A stretch of 64,000 nucleotides of DNA, taken from a virus (lineage: Duplodnaviria > Caudoviricetes). The stretch spans positions 124 through 64,123 of the IMG/VR virus record IMGVR_UViG_3300025898_000005. One strand, written 5' to 3'. The translations under genes were made by a program, and so were the position numbers. Positions 3,229 to 57,697 of the stretch are shown here, one piece after another (the first letter of the stretch is position 1; the number at the start of each line of letters is the position of its first letter). The notes under the pieces are model-generated. The model searched no databases. It was given only the letters and a program-made list of their open reading frames with translations, and was not told where the DNA came from.

Positions 3229-3545
3229 CGGACAAAATAACGGACCAGATTTTGGACATCCTGGGTTTTAATGAATATTGGGACAAGGGTGGCACGACGT
3301 GTGATATCGGCTACCGTTTTATTGCATTGAATGATGAAGGTAATAGGGGATATAGGATTTGGATAGTTGGGGAACAGGAGGCCGGCAGTTATTGGGGATA
3401 TGAAATAGAGGCGCGGCCGGGTCATTTTGCGACTTCAGATTTTGATCATATTGAAACGCTGGAAGATCTAATCAACGATATAAAGATAAAATGCCCTGTG
3501 GATCAATTTAAAAAATTTATGGATTTGATAACTGAAAAATTATGA
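3219..3545 (+). CDS. Hypothetical protein
   Basis: Coupled ORF. Confidence 0.6.
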   Translation: MFLTDKITDQILDILGFNEYWDKGGTTCDIGYRFIALNDEGNRGYRIWIVGEQEAGSYWGYEIEARPGHFATSDFDHIETLEDLINDIKIKCPVDQFKKFMDLITEKL

Positions 3546-5338
3546 ACTACTTCGATATCGGCACGGTAATGAACCGCCTCATTCTTTTGAAGACCCGGCT
3601 CCTGGTCACTGGCGGCAGCGGATCAGGAAAATCCTACCTTCTTCGAAAGATCATGGAAGAGAATAGCGGGCAGGTCCCCATGATCATCATGGACATCGAA
3701 GGGGAATTCGTCACCCTCCGGGAGGAATTCCCCTTCGCCCTGGTGGCGGTCAGTGACGGGGATCTTCCCCTTTCCGTCCAATACGCCGACATCCTGGCCC
3801 GGAAGATCATCGAAACCCGGCTTTCCGTTATCATCGATCTTTACGACCTCCTTTCCCACGAACGGGCCCAGTTTGTGGATAAGTTCCTGAAGGCACTGAT
3901 GAACCTGCCGAAGACTTTATGGTTGGACACCCTGATCTTCATCGATGAAGCCCATTTATTTTGCCCCCAGACCGATAAGGCGCTGTCCGGGAACGCCGTC
4001 ATTGATGTGATGACCCGGGGCCGGAAGCGGGGCCTTGCCGGCATCCTTTCCACCCAGCGACTGGCCAAGCTCCACAAGGATGCCGCCGCCGAATGCCAAA
4101 ACAAGATGATCGGCAAAACCAGCCTGACGATGGATATGGAACGGTCTGCCGATGAACTGGGTCTGTCCCGTAAGGTCATCGGCCCCATGCTGCGGGCCCT
4201 GCAACCTGGTCAATTCCTTGCCCATGGTCCTGCCTTCATCAATGAACTGGAACAGGAAACGGATGGGAAAATCGAAGTTACTCCCGTAAAGACCAGCCAC
4301 GAAAAAAGGACCGGTGGGCAATCGATGCCGTCGACTCCCCCTTCTATTCGGGACATCCTGGCCAGCCTTCAGGACATCCCCCAGGAAGCGGAAAAGGAAT
4401 TGAAGACCGTTGAAGAACTACGGATTGAAGTTTCCAGTCTCCGGGAGCGGCTTAAAAAATGGGGCGCCGGAATCCCCCCGAATGATAAGGAAGCCGGCCT
4501 GATCACCCGATACCAGAACAATCTGGCGGCGATCAGCAAAGAACGGAACCGATATAAGGAGGACTGGCTCGTAACACAGAAACAGTTGGTGGAATTGGCG
4601 GTGATCGTTGACAAACAGCGAAAGGTGATTATATCCATCCTGGATATTACCCGGGATCATCTGGGAGCGGAAAAAAGCAATGTTCACATTTATAACGGCA
4701 GTCCCGGCAATGTTTCCGATGCCGAATTTGAAAAATCCGTTGAATTCGAAATGCACCTGCAGGATGACGTTCATCCCGAACGCAATGGCAATTATCTGGC
4801 AAAGGAAACCAACCTGGGCCCCGGGAAGGCTCGGGTGGAATTGAAACCTATCGAAGGACCTGCCAAATTGGGCCGGTGTGAAAGGACCGTGCTTTCCTGG
4901 TTATCCGGGTTCGACCGCGCCTTCACAAAATACCAGATAGCCATGGCCACGGGATATTCCCAGACCTCCGGCGGTTTCAAGAATGCCCTGTCTATCCTGC
5001 GGACCGAACAATTGATCGAAGGCAAAGACCTGATCAAAGCCGTCAATGAAGATAAATTCGAAAATTATGGCATGATCCCGCTTATAAAAGGGAAAGTAAC
5101 CGTCCATACCTACCGCAGCCGCCCGGGTCTTTGTGAACGGACTATCCTGGATTTCCTGGCCGATCATCCCAAAGTCCTTTACACTAAGGCAGAACTGGCT
5201 GAAATTACTGGTTATTCGGCTACTTCCGGGGGCTTTAAAAATGCCCTTTCAATATTGCATAGTCTGGAAATGGTTAAAAAGACAGCCATCGGCTTTGAAA
5301 TTCATCCATCTTTGCCTATCAATAAAAAATCATCATGA
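3542..5338 (+). CDS. HerA/FtsK-family ATPase with coiled coil and two C-terminal winged-helix-like repeats
   Basis: GGSGSGKS, DIEGEF, FIDEAHLF, RGRKRG, STQR motifs; duplicated GYSxTSGGFKNALSIL. Confidence 0.8.
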   Translation: MNYFDIGTVMNRLILLKTRLLVTGGSGSGKSYLLRKIMEENSGQVPMIIMDIEGEFVTLREEFPFALVAVSDGDLPLSVQYADILARKIIETRLSVIIDLYDLLSHERAQFVDKFLKALMNLPKTLWLDTLIFIDEAHLFCPQTDKALSGNAVIDVMTRGRKRGLAGILSTQRLAKLHKDAAAECQNKMIGKTSLTMDMERSADELGLSRKVIGPMLRALQPGQFLAHGPAFINELEQETDGKIEVTPVKTSHEKRTGGQSMPSTPPSIRDILASLQDIPQEAEKELKTVEELRIEVSSLRERLKKWGAGIPPNDKEAGLITRYQNNLAAISKERNRYKEDWLVTQKQLVELAVIVDKQRKVIISILDITRDHLGAEKSNVHIYNGSPGNVSDAEFEKSVEFEMHLQDDVHPERNGNYLAKETNLGPGKARVELKPIEGPAKLGRCERTVLSWLSGFDRAFTKYQIAMATGYSQTSGGFKNALSILRTEQLIEGKDLIKAVNEDKFENYGMIPLIKGKVTVHTYRSRPGLCERTILDFLADHPKVLYTKAELAEITGYSATSGGFKNALSILHSLEMVKKTAIGFEIHPSLPINKKSS

Positions 5339-8912: not shown

Positions 8913-9293
8913 ATGGAAGAAGAAAATAATTCGCCCGAAATCCCAAAAGACAAACGCCTGCAGAATTTACGACCTGCCCGCCCTGGTGAGGTACGCAACC
9001 CGAATGGTCGGCCGAAAGGCAGCATGAATCTGAAGACCGTCTTCAATAAATTCCTGAAGATAAAGGAGCCGACAACCAACCCGATCACAAAGCGGGCCTG
9101 CAACTTATCCCAGATTGAGATCATGGCCCTGGCGATGATAAAGGAAGCCAGGAATGGGAACGTGCAGGCTTTCAATGCCATCGCCGACCGCTTGGAAGGC
9201 AAGCCGGAGCAAAAACAGATCAATGCCTTTGAGGAAGGAACAGAGATATCCGTAACCATCGGTAAGCCGCGGGACATGCAGCAAGATGCCTAA
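8913..9293 (+). CDS. Terminase small subunit
   Basis: NLRP...GEVRNPNGRPKGS and DRLEGKP motifs; precedes the large subunit. Confidence 0.75.
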   Translation: MEEENNSPEIPKDKRLQNLRPARPGEVRNPNGRPKGSMNLKTVFNKFLKIKEPTTNPITKRACNLSQIEIMALAMIKEARNGNVQAFNAIADRLEGKPEQKQINAFEEGTEISVTIGKPRDMQQDA

Positions 9294-10770
9294 GATCAAT
9301 GTCGATATTGACCCCGATAATTTCCTACCCGTTTATCAGCCCACCATCGGCAGTACAAACGACATTGAATTTCTATATGGTTCCCGGGACAGCGGCAAAT
9401 CCCGCCACATCGCCCAGATCCTGGTCACCATCTGCCTGGCACTGCCGAAGTTCAAGTGCCCGCTTATCAGGAAGGTGCAGAACACCGTGAAGGATAGCCA
9501 GTGGACCATGATCAAAGAAGTGGTGGAGGAATGGAAACTGGATCACCTGTTCAAGTTCACTACGAGCCCGCTGGAAATAAAATGTAAATCGGGCGGCGTA
9601 TTCCTGGCCCGGGGGCTGGATGATGCCAAAAAGATAAAATCCCTGACCAACCCCAGCCATGCCTGGATAGAAGAGGGCGCCGACATTACCAGCGATGACT
9701 GGACCATCATCACCACTTCCCTGCGGTCGAACCATTACAAGACCCAGATATGGTTCAGTTTCAACCCGGATATACCTGGCATCTATGAAGATTTCTGGCT
9801 TTACCAGCGGTATTTTGCCCATCATAAGGAATTGACCTTTACCGATAAGATCACCGAAACCTTGCAGGATGGTGAAGAAGTAAACATCACCTACCGGGCG
9901 ACACACAGTACTTTTTATGATAACCGATATTGCCCGGGAACACGGAAAGCCTATTACGAAGGACTTGCTAAAACGTCTGAATATGAACATCGTGTATACT
10001 GTCTTGGCCTCTGGGGGGTCCGAAAGACCGGCGGGGAATTCCTCAAAAGGTTCCAGTCGAACATCCATGTCAATCGCCGGCTGCAGTACAATCCTATGTT
10101 TCCCCTGTTTTTTTCGCTGGATAACAACGTCTACCCCTATTGTGCGGTGGGAGTATGGCAACTGATCCCCGAAGAAATTGATGGGGGAACGATATGGTTT
10201 GCCCGACAGATAGCGGAACTGCCAGCGGTGGATCCTGATAACAGTGCGGCCGGGGCGGCAAAACTGATCATCAAATACCTGCACCAGCTCAAATACTACG
10301 AAATGACCGTCCATATCTGTGGGGACCGGTCCACAAAGAACCAATCCACCATTGATCCGCTGAAAAGATCCTTCTTCCAGATCGTCAACGAAGCCGTCAC
10401 TTCCGCTGACTTCCGTACAAAGGATTGCTTCCTGGCCTATTCACCGGCGCCGCCAGGGATAGCCGACTTCGCAAATGCCATCTTCAATAATGAGATTCCC
10501 GGCCTGCAGATAGAAATCGGTAATTGCCCGGAATCCATAAAGGACTATATCATCACGAAGGCCGACCGTAATGGTAATATCCTGAAGATCAATAAGGCGG
10601 ACTATGAGGGTGGCCCATCTTACCAGCACAATGGCCACTTCACCGATACGCTGAAGGATATGATCGTGCAGGCCTTCTATGATCAGTACATTGCCTATAC
10701 CAACCGGCATAAAACCATCCAGCCAGGGGGTGTCTCTAAAGTGAATCGCGTTTCAAATATTACCGGATAA
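9286..10770 (+). CDS. terL: Terminase large subunit, PBSX family
   Basis: YGSRDSGKS, RKVQNTVKDSQW, GLDDAKKIKS, WIEEG, SFNP, VYCLGLWG motifs. Confidence 0.9.
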   Translation: MPKINVDIDPDNFLPVYQPTIGSTNDIEFLYGSRDSGKSRHIAQILVTICLALPKFKCPLIRKVQNTVKDSQWTMIKEVVEEWKLDHLFKFTTSPLEIKCKSGGVFLARGLDDAKKIKSLTNPSHAWIEEGADITSDDWTIITTSLRSNHYKTQIWFSFNPDIPGIYEDFWLYQRYFAHHKELTFTDKITETLQDGEEVNITYRATHSTFYDNRYCPGTRKAYYEGLAKTSEYEHRVYCLGLWGVRKTGGEFLKRFQSNIHVNRRLQYNPMFPLFFSLDNNVYPYCAVGVWQLIPEEIDGGTIWFARQIAELPAVDPDNSAAGAAKLIIKYLHQLKYYEMTVHICGDRSTKNQSTIDPLKRSFFQIVNEAVTSADFRTKDCFLAYSPAPPGIADFANAIFNNEIPGLQIEIGNCPESIKDYIITKADRNGNILKINKADYEGGPSYQHNGHFTDTLKDMIVQAFYDQYIAYTNRHKTIQPGGVSKVNRVSNITG

Positions 10771-54017: not shown

Positions 54018-55715
54018 ATGGTATATGGTTCAGTTTGTTCTGGGATAGAATGTGCCACGGTCGCATGGCATCCGCTTGGATGGACCCCGGCGTGGTTCAG
54101 TGAGATAGAACCCTTCCCTTGCCGGTTACTTGCCCATTATTACCCCACCGTGCCCAACCTGGGCGATATGCTCAAACTACATGAAAAAGAAATCTTCCAG
54201 CAATCAAACATCGATGTCCTGGTCGGAGGAACCCCCTGCCAATCCTTCAGCACCGCCGGCCTCCGGGCAGGACTTGACAGTCCTAATGGAAACCTGGCCC
54301 TGCAGTTTTGTAGAATTCTTACAATTAAGCGGCCGCGCTGGTTTGTTTGGGAGAACGTCCCCGGCGTTTTTTCATCTAAAAAAGGGGAAGACTTCCGATC
54401 AATCCTTTGCGGGTTTTCAGAATGCGGGTATAGTTGCGCCTGGCGGGTGCTGGACGCTAAGTTTTTCGGAGTACCCCAGCGCCGCCGTAGAGTCTTCGTT
54501 GTCGGATATCTTGGAAACGACTGGCGACCACCTGCAGCGGTACTATTTGAGCCCGAAGGCTTGCGAAGGGATATTGCGCCGGGCAGCGGCAAGGGGAAGG
54601 CAGTTGCCGCCCTTACTAAAACAGGCGTTGGAACATGTGGTGCAGATGACAACCAAGCCCAAGCCGGACACATTATCGTCGGAACCATAGACGCCAGCGA
54701 CGACGGGAAAAAGCAAAATTTGATCTGTTGGTCGATCATGCCGATGAACAGTTCAAAGGATTACAAGGCCAGAGAAGTAGAGGTTTCCCAGCCCATCACC
54801 ACCCAGCAGGGTATTTCAAATAATGGCGGCGATATCGTTCAGCAGTTCCCGCAAGGCTTTCAATCCAGCCAGTCCGACCTACGCCTTGTCGATACCCACG
54901 CCACGTTGGACGCCAACAATGGGCCGCGCCAGCATAACGGAATCATTAACGGATCGATCGTCAGGCGGTTGACGCCTTTGGAATGCGAACGCCTGCAAGG
55001 ATTCCCGGAAATTTTAAACGAAGTATTTATATGCGTGGACGAGAAACAAGAAAATGCATTATTTGCGGAACAGAATTTACTGCTCCTAAAGCAAAAAATA
55101 AAAGAACTTGTGGCCGTGCATGTGCAGACAAACTCCGTGCAATCAATTCTTCAAATACACAATGCAGAAAAATTACTATTATCTGTCAATGGTGCGGAAA
55201 AGGAAAAAAGGTTTCCCCTACCTATGGCAACCGCCGATTTTGTTCATCTCCTTGCGCTTATGCCTTCAATAGTGGACCGAACAATAAGTTATGGAAAGGA
55301 GGAATTACCCGATTGCATCAAACTTTTTTCACAAGCCTTGAATGGAAACGGGTTTGTCAGGTTATCTGGGCAAGATATCAAAGAGTTTGCCAGCGATGTG
55401 GAAAGCGGCATCGCCATGGTGAAAAGACTTTCGAAGTCCATCATGTCAGAAGTTGGGCTAAATATCCCAGTCTTAGAACAGTTCCTGAAAATCTGGTCCT
55501 CCTTTGTTACAACTGCCATAAATTCGTTCATTCCAGACGAAATAAAAAGCGTTGGTTCTTACTGGATTAGAGTATCTATACCTCATGGATATACTGCCAT
55601 CCCCGGCGCGGTGGATACGCCCAGATATGAGGCTATTGGTAATAGTATGGCCGTGCCGGTGATGTACTGGATTGGCCAACGGATTGATAAAGTAGATAAA
55701 ATATTCAACAAATGA
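54018..55715 (+). CDS. DNA (cytosine-5) methyltransferase with an in-frame insertion of about 192 codons
   Basis: SVCSGIE (I), GGTPCQSFS (IV), WENV (VI), PQRRRRVF (VIII), RRLTPLECERLQGFP (IX), RYEAIGNSMAVPV (X). Confidence 0.9.
   Translation: MVYGSVCSGIECATVAWHPLGWTPAWFSEIEPFPCRLLAHYYPTVPNLGDMLKLHEKEIFQQSNIDVLVGGTPCQSFSTAGLRAGLDSPNGNLALQFCRILTIKRPRWFVWENVPGVFSSKKGEDFRSILCGFSECGYSCAWRVLDAKFFGVPQRRRRVFVVGYLGNDWRPPAAVLFEPEGLRRDIAPGSGKGKAVAALTKTGVGTCGADDNQAQAGHIIVGTIDASDDGKKQNLICWSIMPMNSSKDYKAREVEVSQPITTQQGISNNGGDIVQQFPQGFQSSQSDLRLVDTHATLDANNGPRQHNGIINGSIVRRLTPLECERLQGFPEILNEVFICVDEKQENALFAEQNLLLLKQKIKELVAVHVQTNSVQSILQIHNAEKLLLSVNGAEKEKRFPLPMATADFVHLLALMPSIVDRTISYGKEELPDCIKLFSQALNGNGFVRLSGQDIKEFASDVESGIAMVKRLSKSIMSEVGLNIPVLEQFLKIWSSFVTTAINSFIPDEIKSVGSYWIRVSIPHGYTAIPGAVDTPRYEAIGNSMAVPVMYWIGQRIDKVDKIFNK
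54181..54690 (+). CDS. Overprinted +1-frame ORF inside the MTase (beta-subunit-like)
   Basis: SLSDILE...RYYLSPKACEGILRRA..RG..LP..L..AL motif; start uncertain. Confidence 0.6.
   Translation: MKKKSSSNQTSMSWSEEPPANPSAPPASGQDLTVLMETWPCSFVEFLQLSGRAGLFGRTSPAFFHLKKGKTSDQSFAGFQNAGIVAPGGCWTLSFSEYPSAAVESSLSDILETTGDHLQRYYLSPKACEGILRRAAARGRQLPPLLKQALEHVVQMTTKPKPDTLSSEP
55031..55570 (+). CDS. HNH endonuclease with Zn-ribbon repeats, nested in the MTase gene in the +2 frame
   Basis: CxxC repeats, N.LWKGG, CQRCG...EVHHV...NLVLLCYNCHKFVH; ATG in tatttatATG context. Confidence 0.85.
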   Translation: MRGRETRKCIICGTEFTAPKAKNKRTCGRACADKLRAINSSNTQCRKITIICQWCGKGKKVSPTYGNRRFCSSPCAYAFNSGPNNKLWKGGITRLHQTFFTSLEWKRVCQVIWARYQRVCQRCGKRHRHGEKTFEVHHVRSWAKYPSLRTVPENLVLLCYNCHKFVHSRRNKKRWFLLD

Positions 55716-55993
55716 CCCAGAATCAACAGGATACGCTAATCGATATGCTCCGGGGTGCCTATCTCATAAAGACCCGGGACAGCAATAAACGGCCCTGCTA
55801 TAAACTCTATACCGGAAACAACAGCCCGCTCCGGTATATCAAAAACAGCCATTTGCCTCCCTGGGATTGTTTAAAGGTATCGAAGTCCGATCCGAACAGA
55901 ATCGGACTGAGCCGGCGGACGATCCAGGGATATCACGGGAAATCCATTATTAAAAAATTGTACCTAAAATATCGGAAGGATGGAATTAAATAA
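55712..55993 (+). CDS. Basic hypothetical protein
   Basis: Coupled ORF. Confidence 0.55.
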   Translation: MTQNQQDTLIDMLRGAYLIKTRDSNKRPCYKLYTGNNSPLRYIKNSHLPPWDCLKVSKSDPNRIGLSRRTIQGYHGKSIIKKLYLKYRKDGIK

Positions 55994-56954
55994 ATTTACC
56001 CAGGGGGAGGCATTGGAGCAATTGCGGAAGATGCCGGATAATTTGGTCCACTGTATCGTAACATCGCCACCCTACTGGGGTCTTAGGAATTACGGGGTGG
56101 ATCAACAGTTGGGCATGGAGCATACCCCGGAAGGATATATCCAGAACATGGTGGACGTATTCCGGGAATGCCGGCGGCTTCTCCGGGATGACGGCACCCT
56201 GTGGCTGAACCTGGGCGATACCTATATGGGCGGCAAAGGGGCCAACGGTGCATCACAGGCCTACAGCCAGCATACGAACGCCATCAACCAGGTTGCCCTT
56301 CATACTACCGCACCGGGAGAATTCCGGCCGAATGATCGCCCCCACCCTTTTATAAAGGCAAAGGAACTGGTGGGGATACCCTGGCGGGTCGCGCTGGCGT
56401 TGCAGGCAGACGGATGGTATTTACGACAAGATATTATATGGCATAAGCCGAACCCCATGCCGGAATCGGTAACGGACCGGTGTACGAAGGCCCATGAATA
56501 CATCTTTCTTTTGACGAAGGGGAAAAAGTATTACTACAATGCTGCCGCCATTGCTGAAAAGGCTATCTACTCCAACGTGGCCGGCATGGATTCAACCGGG
56601 TATAAGGATGCGATGAAGTTCAATAAAAAGATGGCCGGCACCGGTCTACAGAGCAAAAGGAAAGATTACCCTGGCGCCGATATCGGCACCCGCAATAAAA
56701 GGTCAGTCTGGCCCATTGCCACGATTCCTTATAAGGATGCCCACTTTGCGACCTTCCCCGAAGAGCTACCCCGCCTTTGCCTGCTGGCCGGCTGTCCTGT
56801 AGGCGGGATCATGCTGGATCCTTTTTCCGGGGCTGGAACCGGCCCGATGGTGGCCCGGATGCTGGGGATCAACTTCTACGCCATCGAACTAAACCCGAAA
56901 TACATCAAACTGGCGGAACGCCGCCTGAAAAAAAGACTGGGACTTTTTATATGA
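55980..56954 (+). CDS. DNA N4-cytosine / N6-adenine methyltransferase (beta class)
   Basis: VTSPPYW, WLNLGD, IIWHKPNPMPES, HFATFP, LDPFSGAGT. Confidence 0.9.
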   Translation: MELNKFTQGEALEQLRKMPDNLVHCIVTSPPYWGLRNYGVDQQLGMEHTPEGYIQNMVDVFRECRRLLRDDGTLWLNLGDTYMGGKGANGASQAYSQHTNAINQVALHTTAPGEFRPNDRPHPFIKAKELVGIPWRVALALQADGWYLRQDIIWHKPNPMPESVTDRCTKAHEYIFLLTKGKKYYYNAAAIAEKAIYSNVAGMDSTGYKDAMKFNKKMAGTGLQSKRKDYPGADIGTRNKRSVWPIATIPYKDAHFATFPEELPRLCLLAGCPVGGIMLDPFSGAGTGPMVARMLGINFYAIELNPKYIKLAERRLKKRLGLFI

Positions 56955-57697
56955 AATATGATAATCAAAAGGTCGGACTGGGTCTTTCTGGCGGCATAAA
57001 TTCTATGGCTGTTCTTTGCTGGCTGATAGAAACCGGTGAGCAGCCGGCGGAATTACATATTTATTATGCCCATTTTGCCGAACACTCCCCGGATACTTTT
57101 CAATTTGTGGCTGACGGCATTAGGATGGCCAGGAAACATTTCAATAAGGTGGTGGTGAAAATTACCAGTAATAGCGTTCTGGCCTATTTCGAGAAGATAC
57201 GCATGATTCCCCACCCCAGGCAATCTCCTTGCACAGGGCATCTGAAGACTTTTCCGATGGAGGCATACTGGATAGATAACGGCGTTTCTATAGACCTTAT
57301 CGGGTATGTAAAGGAAGAGAAGAGAAGAATGGATAAAATACTGGCCAACGGATCTAATAACCTTTTTACCAGTAAGGATTTCCCCATCCATCTTTTTACC
57401 AATGAATGGTGTTTCGATATTGTGGATCGTATGCTGGGGTGGCATCCGGCTATTTATGACATTCGGGACGATAAGGGTAATCGGGTGTTTTCCCACAATA
57501 ATTGTCTCCCTTGTAAAAACATGTGGATCAAAGCCATGAAGGATGTACAAACATATTATCCACGATATATGCAGCGAGCGATTGCTACTTCCAATAAACT
57601 GAAATCTTACTGGGGACGAGAGGCGGATAAATATTATACGGAATTTGGCAGGGAGGATTTCGAACCGGGACAGTGCGCTGTTTGCGCTTTTGATTAA
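56951..57697 (+). CDS. PAPS-reductase-like PP-loop protein with Cys cluster
   Basis: GLSGGINS, PCTGHLK, IGYVKEE..R, HNNCLPCK, CAVC. Confidence 0.7.
   Translation: MKYDNQKVGLGLSGGINSMAVLCWLIETGEQPAELHIYYAHFAEHSPDTFQFVADGIRMARKHFNKVVVKITSNSVLAYFEKIRMIPHPRQSPCTGHLKTFPMEAYWIDNGVSIDLIGYVKEEKRRMDKILANGSNNLFTSKDFPIHLFTNEWCFDIVDRMLGWHPAIYDIRDDKGNRVFSHNNCLPCKNMWIKAMKDVQTYYPRYMQRAIATSNKLKSYWGREADKYYTEFGREDFEPGQCAVCAFD

What the first reader, a model, noticed from the sequence alone, without database searches (positions are those of the whole stretch)
55005..55586. HNH endonuclease nested in a methyltransferase with no intron or intein, while the host frame stays open
Seen: motif IX (...LQGFP) and the run-up to motif X (HGYTAIPG...RYEAIGNS), normally adjacent as GFPxGYT, are separated by an AT-richer insert of about 576 nt. 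The insert encodes a complete 179-aa HNH nuclease in the +2 frame (55031-55570). Only ~20 nt precede its ATG and ~15 nt follow its stop, leaving no room for a group I intron core, and the host-frame translation has no intein motifs. Yet the MTase frame has no stop for ~192 codons and rejoins in phase; at roughly 5% stops per codon this is about 1e-4 by chance (rough estimate). Inference: a homing element that avoids killing its host gene by overprinting, with the insert tolerated as a loop, cleaved, or skipped by ribosomal bypass.
Basis: partly seen in the sequence, partly recalled or inferred. Interest (0 to 1): 0.8.

Follow-up and report, generated by a model that had tools for sequence, protein, structure and literature searches.

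The report
Hidden HNH nuclease inside phage methylase
A selfish DNA-cutting enzyme gene sits inside a phage cytosine methyltransferase gene in a different reading frame, and the host frame is kept free of stop codons so the methylase is probably still made; this arrangement was first described in 2025 in another class of phage methylase.

Summary
A 576-nt, AT-richer insert (55011-55586) splits motifs IX and X of a 565-aa C5 DNA methyltransferase. It carries a complete 179-aa HNH gene (55031-55570) in the -1 frame, and the methylase frame runs through it without a stop.

This is not chance. All 14 distinct related loci fetched through the HNH protein alone have 0 host-frame stops across the HNH match (about 165-177 codons). 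In 103 free-standing relatives, 4.25% of codons in that frame are stops.

A profile of the read-through peptide finds 479 protein clusters; 44 of 45 sampled are C5 methylases. The window's methylase sits among 40 insert-less relatives, and an AU test rejects a single origin of the insert-bearing methylases (p 2.5e-78).

No intron (Rfam, fold z -0.57) and no intein signature was found.

Best reading: a homing HNH element, tolerated because the host protein is translated through it as a surface excursion.

The kind is already published as the "ShiLan domain" (Arsenault et al. 2025, Genes 16:178). That case is in an N6/N4 methylase and has a barely related HNH. This is therefore a new member of the kind: a large family in C5 methylases. 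No paper found in the library searches describes this arrangement in C5 methylases.

Splicing, protein size, methylase activity and cleavage remain untested.

The parts
54018..55715 (+). C5 DNA methyltransferase ORF read through the insert (565 aa)
   Evidence: ORF; PF00145, E 1.2e-50. Motifs PCQ, ENV, QRR, RLQGFP and GNS are all at invariant columns of A1/A4.
54018..55010 (+). 5' part of the methylase (motifs I to IX, ending ...ECERLQGFPE)
55011..55586 (+). Inserted element: 576 nt = 192 host-frame codons, AT-richer than its flanks
   Evidence: Boundaries come from insert-less relatives. GC profile. The host-frame peptide has no Pfam family.
55011..55030 (+). 20-nt AT-rich leader before the HNH start; no Shine-Dalgarno. 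In the host frame it encodes the first predicted beta strand of the insert.
55013..55019 (+). T_TTA_AAC heptamer in the host frame. A -1 slip here would enter the HNH frame. It is not conserved in relatives and is probably incidental.
   Evidence: Read. In one search the HNH frame is open across the junction in only 5 of 13 loci.
55031..55570 (+). HNH endonuclease gene (179 aa plus TAG) in the -1 frame relative to the methylase: two Cys4 zinc modules and an HNH core
   Evidence: PF01844, E 1e-11; phrog_1271 HNH endonuclease, E 1.6e-21; all invariant Cys/His/Asn present.
55571..55586 (+). 16-nt 3' tail of the element. In the host frame it is part of the last predicted beta strand (...RVSIPH).
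55587..55715 (+). 3' part of the methylase (GYTAIPG...RYEAIGNSMAVPV, motif X), in phase with the 5' part
   Evidence: R536, Y537, G541, N542 and S543 are invariant in A4.

Best explanation
The insert is a mobile homing-type HNH endonuclease gene that has invaded the conserved motif IX / motif X junction of a phage C5 cytosine methyltransferase gene. It carries no ribozyme and no protein-splicing domain. Instead its length is a multiple of three, and the methylase frame (+1 relative to the HNH codons) is kept free of stop codons. Ribosomes that start at the methylase ATG therefore read through the element and make a 565-aa methylase with a 192-residue excursion between motifs IX and X. The excursion begins and ends with short strands encoded mostly outside the HNH ORF. 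The HNH protein is made separately from its own ATG, without a Shine-Dalgarno sequence, from an AT-rich and weakly structured leader. The route could be internal initiation or a leaderless transcript. The HNH is presumed to cut insert-less alleles near ...GARTGYGARCGnYTnCARGGnTTYCCnGAY | RRnTAYAC..., and recombinational repair then copies the element in. Shown here: the gene anatomy, selection for an open host frame, selection on the HNH frame, patchy distribution across methylase lineages, and absence of intron and intein signatures. Inferred: read-through translation, retained methylase activity, endonuclease activity and target, and the route of HNH expression.
For: 1. Anatomy.
2. Open host frame. 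All 14 distinct loci fetched through HNH similarity alone have 0 host-frame stops over the HNH match, against 5-33 stops in the third frame. They are the window, 12 metagenome or viral loci and one Bacteroidales MAG, with 37-57% HNH identity to the window and GC 25-56%.
3. Control. 103 distinct free-standing relatives have 4.25% stops in that frame. Of the 14 with matches of at least 120 codons, 13 have 3-15 stops.
4. Conservative permutation test. Shuffling synonymous codons within each gene gives P(0 stops) of 0.002-0.51 per locus, with 0.56-3.9 stops expected.
5. The HNH frame is the selected frame. Amino-acid identity is 50% in the HNH frame and 30% in the host frame. Nucleotide identity at HNH codon positions 1/2/3 is 0.59/0.64/0.45. 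All catalytic and zinc residues are invariant.
6. Prevalence. A profile of the read-through peptide finds 479 cluster representatives (305 at E<=1e-30) in 1.84 billion proteins, each as an internal segment. 44 of 45 sampled are PF00145.
7. Mobility. The window's methylase lies in a 41-row clade in which the other 40 rows lack the insert. At least 7 gains or losses are needed on the tree, and an AU test rejects a single clade of the insert-bearing rows (delta lnL 293, p 2.5e-78).
8. The 3' exon stays conserved and in phase in all insert-bearing rows.
9. No intron: Rfam found nothing in the window or in 12 related loci, and the fold z-score is -0.57. No Hint or intein family.
10. AF2 model: the methylase core is confident. 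The insert has strands 331-341 and 514-524 with block-mean pLDDT of about 77-87, helices between them, and a middle part below 50.
11. Start region. The leader is more AT-rich than the ORF in 14 of 14 loci, and the start window is less structured than the ORF in 11 of 14.
12. Precedent: the ShiLan element.
Against: No experiment and no RNA data exist for this element: no RNA run is listed. Splicing by an unrecognised ribozyme cannot be formally excluded. The AF2 model of the insert is of low to middling confidence, and I could not inspect its coordinates, so the pairing of the two terminal strands is inferred. No ribosome-binding site or proven promoter precedes the HNH ATG, so its expression route is unknown. 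The 14 loci are related by descent and are not independent trials. The protein-based count is biased towards open frames, because broken alleles would be called as fragments. Whether a methylase with 192 extra residues next to motif X is active is unknown.
Confidence: 0.77

Rival explanations
1. The insert is a group I (or other self-splicing) intron carrying an HNH ORF and is removed from the mRNA. The open host frame would then be irrelevant.
For: HNH genes are common in phage group I introns (established knowledge). The insert lies at a conserved site, as introns do. No RNA data are available to exclude splicing.
Against: Only 20 + 16 nt lie outside the ORF. Rfam with permissive thresholds finds no intron in the window or in 12 related loci. 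The insert RNA folds no better than shuffles (z -0.57). A spliced intron would have no need of an open, in-phase host frame, yet 14 of 14 loci keep one.
Confidence: 0.05
2. The host-frame peptide is removed after translation, by a non-canonical intein or a protease site.
For: It is translated in frame like an intein, and inteins with out-of-frame endonucleases exist (preprint 10.1101/2025.01.02.630785, passages read; side loci).
Against: No Hint or intein family appears even at E<=10. The insert starts with Ile/Val/Leu/Met/Thr, not Cys/Ser. It ends with varied residues and no conserved Asn, and the next residue is Gly or Asp, not Cys/Ser/Thr.
Confidence: 0.04
3. The two frames are linked by recoding. 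Either a -1 frameshift at T_TTA_AAC (55013-55019) makes a methylase-HNH fusion, or ribosomes bypass the insert.
For: The heptamer sits in the right phase at the junction, and the HNH frame is open from 54950 in the window. The HNH is in the -1 phase here, in ShiLan and in the intein-borne side cases.
Against: The HNH frame is closed between the junction and the ATG in 8 of 13 loci, and the heptamer is not conserved. Bypass is unnecessary when the frame is open, and no stop follows the junction. The shared phase has a simpler explanation: this is the cheaper frame to keep open (4.25% against 10.5% stops in controls).
Confidence: 0.04
4. The read-through peptide has been recruited and now serves the methylase, for example as a DNA-binding or regulatory domain, so the open frame is kept for a function rather than for mere tolerance.
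For: Host-frame identity exceeds a synonymous-resampling null: 0.270 against 0.229 (sd 0.004) in 59 divergent pairs. Synonymous codons are shared more often than the null predicts: 0.467 against 0.399. The terminal strands are conserved in pattern.
Against: The closest relatives of the window's methylase do without the insert. The peptide matches no known family and is modelled poorly. The excess is small, and the null ignores site-specific codon bias.
Confidence: 0.07
5. The methylase is a dead gene and the open frame is a coincidence of composition.
For: Phage methylases are dispensable (argued for ShiLan).
Against: 0 stops in 14 of 14 loci, against about 5e-4 per locus expected from controls. 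All catalytic motifs, including the 3' exon, are invariant.
Confidence: 0.02

Closest known systems
ShiLan domain / hidden HNH in mycobacteriophage ShiLan gp65 (Arsenault, Gosselin, Gogarten 2025, Genes 16:178, PMC11855218; Gosselin et al. 2023, PMC9957025)
   Same: An out-of-frame HNH gene sits inside a phage DNA methylase gene. The host frame has no stops. The start codon lies about 18-20 nt into the insert and the stop falls within the last nucleotides. There is no detectable RBS, intron or intein. Distribution is patchy, with an AU test against monophyly. AlphaFold suggests an extruded hairpin-like excursion. The relative phase is the same: the HNH starts at L169:6516 and gp65 at 4786, an offset of 3n+2.
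   Different: The host is an N6/N4 methylase (PF01555), not a C5 methylase (PF00145), so the gene family and the insertion site differ. The HNH proteins share only 21% identity over the zinc-finger modules (pairwise E 3e-5). ShiLan starts with GTG; this family starts with ATG in 14 of 14 loci. The ShiLan set is about ten actinophages; this family has 479 cluster representatives across GC 25-56%.
Pacc40 gp60 insertion (same 2025 paper, section 3.6)
   Same: A second, unrelated out-of-frame nuclease-like ORF inside a methylase, read through in the host frame.
   Different: It lies in a helicase-methylase fusion, and its HNH assignment is uncertain according to the authors. I did not compare sequences.
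[quoted passage not shown]
   Same: The endonuclease is overprinted on a translated host frame. My side loci L146, L153 and L135 show an HNH_3 ORF in the -1 phase inside a terminase intein.
   Different: There the read-through peptide is removed by protein splicing. Here no splicing domain exists.
Free-standing homing endonuclease that splits a gene into pieces (mobE in Aeromonas phage Aeh1 nrdA; recalled, not looked up)
   Same: An endonuclease gene without intron or intein sits inside a conserved gene, and the host function is retained.
   Different: There the host gene is broken into two separately translated halves. Here no stop ends the upstream half and no start codon opens the 43-codon downstream part in frame.
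Group I intron-encoded HNH endonucleases such as I-HmuI (recalled; 1U3E is cited in the 2025 paper)
   Same: An HNH homing enzyme with extra DNA-binding modules, targeting a conserved coding site.
   Different: No ribozyme core.

Membership tests
Hidden out-of-frame HNH insertion elements in phage methylases (ShiLan kind) | Insertion at a conserved site of a DNA methylase gene, with patchy distribution among relatives | tested here: met
   (site); 7 changes on the tree, and the window's clade is 40 of 41 insert-less. AU test p 2.5e-78.
Hidden out-of-frame HNH insertion elements in phage methylases (ShiLan kind) | Host frame runs through the insert without a stop and rejoins in phase | tested here: met
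   14 of 14 distinct loci. Insert lengths are 192-228 codons.
Hidden out-of-frame HNH insertion elements in phage methylases (ShiLan kind) | Complete HNH ORF in the third frame, filling nearly the whole insert | tested here: met
   The phase is the same as in ShiLan.
Hidden out-of-frame HNH insertion elements in phage methylases (ShiLan kind) | No intron and no intein signature | tested here: met
ShiLan domain as a sequence family | Homology of the insert and of the host gene to ShiLan gp65 | tested here: not met
   Host gene is PF01555 against PF00145. HNH identity is 21% over the zinc modules only. None of the 30 listed rows (of 64 records) is a Mycobacterium phage, and Mycobacterium is not among the ten named organism groups.
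HNH endonuclease (PF01844) | His-Asn-His catalytic residues and the flanking Cys pairs | tested here: met
   (45 bits against a cut-off of 21.4). H137, H138, N154, H163, H167, C120, C123, C159 and C162 are invariant. Activity was not tested.
C5 DNA methyltransferase (PF00145) | Motifs I, IV (PCQ), VI (ENV), VIII (QRR), IX and X (GNS) | tested here: met
   Activity was not tested.
Group I intron with HEG | Conserved ribozyme core detectable by covariance models, with room for it outside the ORF | tested here: not met
   Only 36 nt lie outside the ORF.
Intein | Hint fold blocks; N-terminal Cys/Ser; C-terminal Asn followed by Cys/Ser/Thr; endonuclease in frame | tested here: not met
Translational bypass (T4 gene 60 type) | Matched take-off and landing codons, with a stop just after take-off | tested here: not met
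   No stop anywhere in the host frame of the insert. Take-off and landing codons were not searched for.

The most novel reading that the evidence does not exclude
Out-of-frame nesting may be a general, evolved third way, beside introns and inteins, for HNH homing genes to live inside essential or useful genes. It would have rules of its own. (a) The nuclease always sits in the -1 phase, where host-frame stops need only NTA/NTG codons to be avoided. (b) The element brings its own short strand-forming ends, encoded outside the nuclease ORF, that extrude the read-through peptide from the host fold. (c) There is an AT-rich leader, in some loci with an extended -10 box placed to give a leaderless mRNA. 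(d) Both frames leave a measurable mark on synonymous sites. The same design would then recur in C5 methylases, N6/N4 methylases and terminase inteins.
Probability: 0.35. Interest if true: 0.6.

Novelty: new member of a known kind. Interest (0 to 1): 0.5.

Why it matters
Homing endonucleases are thought to need a ribozyme or a protein-splicing domain to persist inside genes. The 2025 ShiLan report suggested a third route, resting on about ten actinophage sequences. This window shows the same design in an unrelated methylase class. It belongs to a family large and diverse enough (479 clusters, GC 25-56%) to give what the first report lacked: a clean statistical demonstration that the host frame is held open by selection, while free-standing relatives of the same nuclease are not.

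There are practical consequences too. Gene callers hide these nucleases: only 1 homologue of the HNH was found among 5.8 billion predicted proteins. They also annotate the hosts as plain, over-long methyltransferases. Finally, the family offers candidate site-specific HNH enzymes with a predictable target, and a natural example of a long insertion tolerated next to motif X of C5 methylases.

Tried and rejected
RNA evidence: no RNA holder is listed for 54600-55900. Laying the one DNA run gave a single contig identical to the window and no insert-less allele or joint.

Searching predicted proteins with the HNH gave only one homologue, because nested ORFs are not called.

I therefore could not collect loci independently of HNH intactness, and cannot say how often the HNH decays while the host frame stays open.

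-1 frameshift idea: the window has T_TTA_AAC at the junction, but the HNH frame is closed upstream of the ATG in 8 of 13 loci. I dropped it as a general mechanism.

Leaderless-promoter idea: matches to TATAAT peak at -12 from the ATG, with a mean of 3.2 of 6. Only 4 of 13 loci match well, two of them with TGn in front, and the window itself does not. I kept it as a hint only.

An accession recalled from memory for phage ShiLan was wrong: it was WIVsmall, which has no PF00145. The right accession came from a paper.

No deposited phage covers 80% or more of the window's methylase: 0 of 1413 records. Earlier notes of this scan: none.

I did not see the GitHub repository or supplements of the 2025 paper. 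Its abstract mentions 'several' similar elements in other phages and prokaryotes, and some of these could be C5-methylase cases.
Full report
**1. What is in the window**

The window is nearly all of a 64,123-base virus record that CheckV rates about 90% complete. It is a tailed phage with terminase, tail fibre and helicase genes. The one DNA run that holds it is a rhizosphere metagenome.

- ORF 54018..55715 (+) encodes 565 aa without a stop.
- It is a C5 DNA methyltransferase (PF00145, E 1.2e-50). The Pfam match stops at residue 332, which is motif IX.
- A second ORF lies inside it, in the frame offset by +2 (= -1). Its ATG is at 55031 and its TAG at 55568-55570. It encodes a 179-aa HNH endonuclease (PF01844, E 1e-11; phrog_1271, E 1.6e-21).
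- Insert-less relatives join ...ECERLQGFPD directly to GYT.IP...RY..GNS (77 of 80 insert-less DNA loci).
- The insert is therefore 55011-55586: 576 nt or 192 codons, with 20 nt before the HNH ATG and 16 nt after its stop.
- GC falls from 0.50-0.59 upstream to 0.37-0.46 inside the insert.

**2. Is the open host frame more than chance?**

I fetched DNA through the HNH protein only, so the sample does not depend on the state of the host frame.

- 167 loci had a tblastn match. Eighteen are close, full-length relatives (one of them partial).
- After removing duplicates, and adding the window and one Bacteroidales MAG (L251), there are 14 distinct loci. HNH identity to the window is 37-57% and GC is 25-56%.
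- In all 14 the HNH lies at the same site of a C5 methylase, in the same phase.
- All 14 have 0 host-frame stops over the HNH match (about 165-177 codons), against 5-33 stops in the third frame.

For the control I set aside 8 intein-borne and 4 ambiguous loci (see section 9). The remaining 103 distinct free-standing relatives gave these figures:

| Measure | Result |
|---|---|
| Stops in the corresponding frame | 364 in 8562 codons (4.25%) |
| Stops in the other frame | 10.5% |
| Matches of at least 120 codons | 13 of 14 have 3-15 stops |
| Chance of 175 open codons at this rate | about 5e-4 per locus |

A deliberately conservative test shuffled synonymous codons within each gene, which keeps its already depleted NTA/NTG codons. 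It still expects 0.56-3.9 stops, and P(0) is 0.002-0.51 per locus.

The loci share ancestry and are not independent trials. At about 50% protein identity, however, synonymous sites have largely turned over, so the frame has been held open.

**3. Which frame is selected for sequence?**

- Over 78 pairs, amino-acid identity is 50.1% in the HNH frame and 30.1% in the host frame.
- Nucleotide identity at HNH codon positions 1/2/3 is 0.59/0.64/0.45. This is the pattern of a gene read in the HNH frame.
- All zinc-binding Cys and the His/Asn of the HNH core are invariant.
- The window's HNH lacks the first of three zinc modules, about 29 residues that are present in the other 12 aligned sequences. 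Hits starting at profile position 36-40 show that this short form recurs.

The host-frame peptide is a little more conserved than a null in which synonymous codons are redrawn with the frame kept open. In the 59 pairs below 55% HNH identity the figures are:

| Measure | Observed | Null |
|---|---|---|
| Host-frame amino-acid identity | 0.270 | 0.229 (sd 0.004) |
| Same codon, given the same amino acid | 0.467 | 0.399 (sd 0.008) |

This hints at a second constraint. The null ignores site-specific codon bias, so I treat it as a lead only.

**4. How common is it, and in what hosts?**

- A profile of 12 read-through peptides (A5) finds 479 cluster representatives at E<=0.001 among 1.84 billion (404 at 1e-10, 305 at 1e-30). 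In all of the best 150 it is a single stretch of the protein, internal wherever the protein is not cut short at an end.
- I sampled 45 of the longer representatives from the 150 listed. Of these, 44 are PF00145, and one also carries an intein.
- This count is biased towards open frames, because broken alleles would be called as fragments. It measures prevalence and is not a test.
- One representative is annotated by NCBI as a cytosine-5 methyltransferase of a Thalassospira strain (P0093).
- No deposited phage covers 80% or more of the window's methylase: 0 of 1413 matching records.

**5. Mobility**

I built a tree from 67 of the 120 best methylase homologues listed. The set was the window's own methylase, all 19 others that cover at least 99% of the query, and 47 of the other 100, picked down the ranking without a rule. 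The insert columns were removed (318 columns kept).

- The window's methylase falls in a 41-row clade (SH-aLRT 99) whose other 40 rows lack the insert.
- The 19 other insert-bearing rows sit in the opposite clade, mixed with 7 insert-less rows.
- At least 7 gains or losses are needed, of which 3 are forced by well-supported branches.
- An AU test rejects one clade of insert-bearing rows (delta lnL 293, p 2.5e-78).
- The hosts of the 14 DNA loci have very different C-terminal motifs (GNSMAVP, GNAVTVNV, GNAFNVDV, GNGVVSAV).

The element has moved between distant C5 methylase genes and always landed at the same junction. The empty site has the consensus GAaTGcGAacG.tTgCAaGG.TTtCCtGAt | aatTACAC.

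**6. Not an intron, not an intein**

- Rfam with permissive thresholds gives only two chance-level snoRNA matches in 54700-55900 (E 2.1 and 6.5).
- In 12 related loci it gives nothing but an unrelated tRNA.
- The insert RNA folds no better than shuffles (z -0.57).
- The host-frame peptide hits no Pfam family, with a best E of 0.09.
- It starts with Ile/Val/Leu/Met/Thr and ends with varied residues. The next residue is Gly or Asp. None of this fits protein splicing.

**7. Fate of the host protein (inferred)**

- All catalytic motifs are at invariant alignment columns. This includes the 43-codon 3' exon (R536, Y537, G541, N542, S543). That argues the exon is still translated in frame.
- In the AlphaFold2 model (67-row alignment, mean pLDDT 65) the methylase core is confident.
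- The insert is modelled as strand 331-341, helices and short strands, a poorly modelled middle (residues 421-480, pLDDT about 30-46), and strand 514-524. The two terminal strands have block-mean pLDDT of about 77-87.
- These two strands are encoded largely outside the HNH ORF. They keep an alternating hydrophobic pattern in all relatives.
- I could not inspect coordinates, so their pairing into a stalk is an inference. It matches the 'hairpin-like' picture published for ShiLan.

**8. Expression of the HNH (open)**

- No Shine-Dalgarno sequence precedes the ATG in most loci.
- The 25 nt upstream are more AT-rich than the ORF in 14 of 14 loci (mean 72% against 58%). The start window is less structured than ORF windows in 11 of 14.
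- Matches to TATAAT peak exactly at -12 from the ATG. Four of 13 loci match well, two of them with TGn in front, which would give a leaderless mRNA. The window itself does not match.
- The window has T_TTA_AAC at 55013-55019 in the host frame, from which a -1 slip would enter the HNH frame. The HNH frame is closed upstream of the ATG in 8 of 13 loci, so frameshifting is not a family trait.

**9. Comparison with what is known**

The library searches show that the kind is already published.

- Arsenault, Gosselin and Gogarten (Genes 2025;16:178, PMC11855218). I read the abstract, the introduction, methods, results and discussion (paper sections 1-4), and the figure legends.
- They describe the 'ShiLan domain'. 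It is a 202-aa insertion in a mycobacteriophage DNA methylase with no host-frame stops. It hides a 195-aa HNH in the third frame, starts 18 nt into the insert and ends in its last four bases. It has no detectable intron, intein or RBS, and it is patchily distributed (Gosselin et al. 2023, PMC9957025, passages only).

I fetched ShiLan (NC_041988.1) and compared it with the window.

| Feature | ShiLan | This window |
|---|---|---|
| Host gene | gp65, N6/N4 methylase PF01555 | C5 methylase PF00145 |
| HNH phase relative to host | offset 3n+2 | the same |
| HNH similarity between the two | 21% identity, limited to the zinc modules, pairwise E 3e-5 | |

The window therefore works like ShiLan, but it is not a sequence relative at the same site. 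None of the papers returned describes this arrangement in C5 methylases. I could not see the repository or supplements of the 2025 paper, which may list further cases.

The shared -1 phase has a simple reason. In this phase a host-frame stop needs an NTA or NTG codon (Leu, Ile, Val, Met) followed by a purine. That is rarer and cheaper to avoid than the other phase (4.25% against 10.5% stops in controls).

**10. Verdict**

It is a new member of a recently described kind: a large, previously hidden family in C5 methylases. Read-through translation, methylase activity, nuclease activity and target, and the route of HNH expression all await experiment.

Noticed in passing
L153:443-2839 with L153:2029-2718; L135:794-3337 with L135:2434-3123; L146:989-3463 with L146:2653-3252 (also L154, L157, L158, L159, L160): A 200-230-aa HNH_3 ORF (E 1e-12 to 1e-16) lies in the -1 phase inside what looks like an intein of a terminase large subunit. 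The intein signs are a Cys start, a TxNHKV block, an ...SNC or ...QNC end, and Hint/Intein_splicing matches at E about 1e-4, below the curated cut-offs. The intein frame is open through the ORF (798-848 aa). [quoted passage not shown]
   Followed up: partly
L125:534-2383 (also L102, L112, L126): An HNH related to the C-terminal half of the window's HNH sits between the two halves of an N6/N4 methylase. Its +1 frame is open for about 190 codons with 0 stops. That frame is not continuous with the upstream half, and a stop directly precedes the ATG of the downstream half. This could be a split gene, a recently broken read-through, or a recoding case.
   Followed up: partly
L095:1-660: The HNH frame is continuous with the N-terminal motif of an N6/N4 methylase (...LPDESVQ...) at the contig start. 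The nuclease appears fused in frame to the 5' exon, as in some intron ORFs.
   Followed up: no
L138:385-837: A distant HNH relative (24% identity) has 0 stops in the +1 frame over 151 codons. It is the only one of 14 long free-standing matches to do so. The flanks were not examined.
   Followed up: no
window 55980-56954 and 56945-57697: An intact N6/N4 methylase (PF01555, E 1.9e-45) and a PAPS-reductase-like gene (phrog_424) lie directly downstream of the invaded C5 methylase. Phage ShiLan has the same neighbourhood of methylases plus a PAPS reductase.
   Followed up: no
window 3542-5338 and 9286-10770: Two separate ORFs both match terminase large subunit families (phrog_2666, E 1e-20; phrog_3717, E 3e-43). 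The first also matches a Zot-like family weakly.
   Followed up: no
window 55031-55570 compared with A7: The window's HNH lacks the first of three Cys4 zinc modules (about 29 residues) that the other 12 aligned relatives have. Hits that begin at profile position 36-40 show this short form is a recurrent sub-type.
   Followed up: partly
alignment A6: One of 45 sampled C5 methylases carrying the read-through peptide also contains an intein (Intein_splicing, E 7.5e-12). Two kinds of selfish insert can therefore share one methylase gene, as in ShiLan gp65.
   Followed up: no
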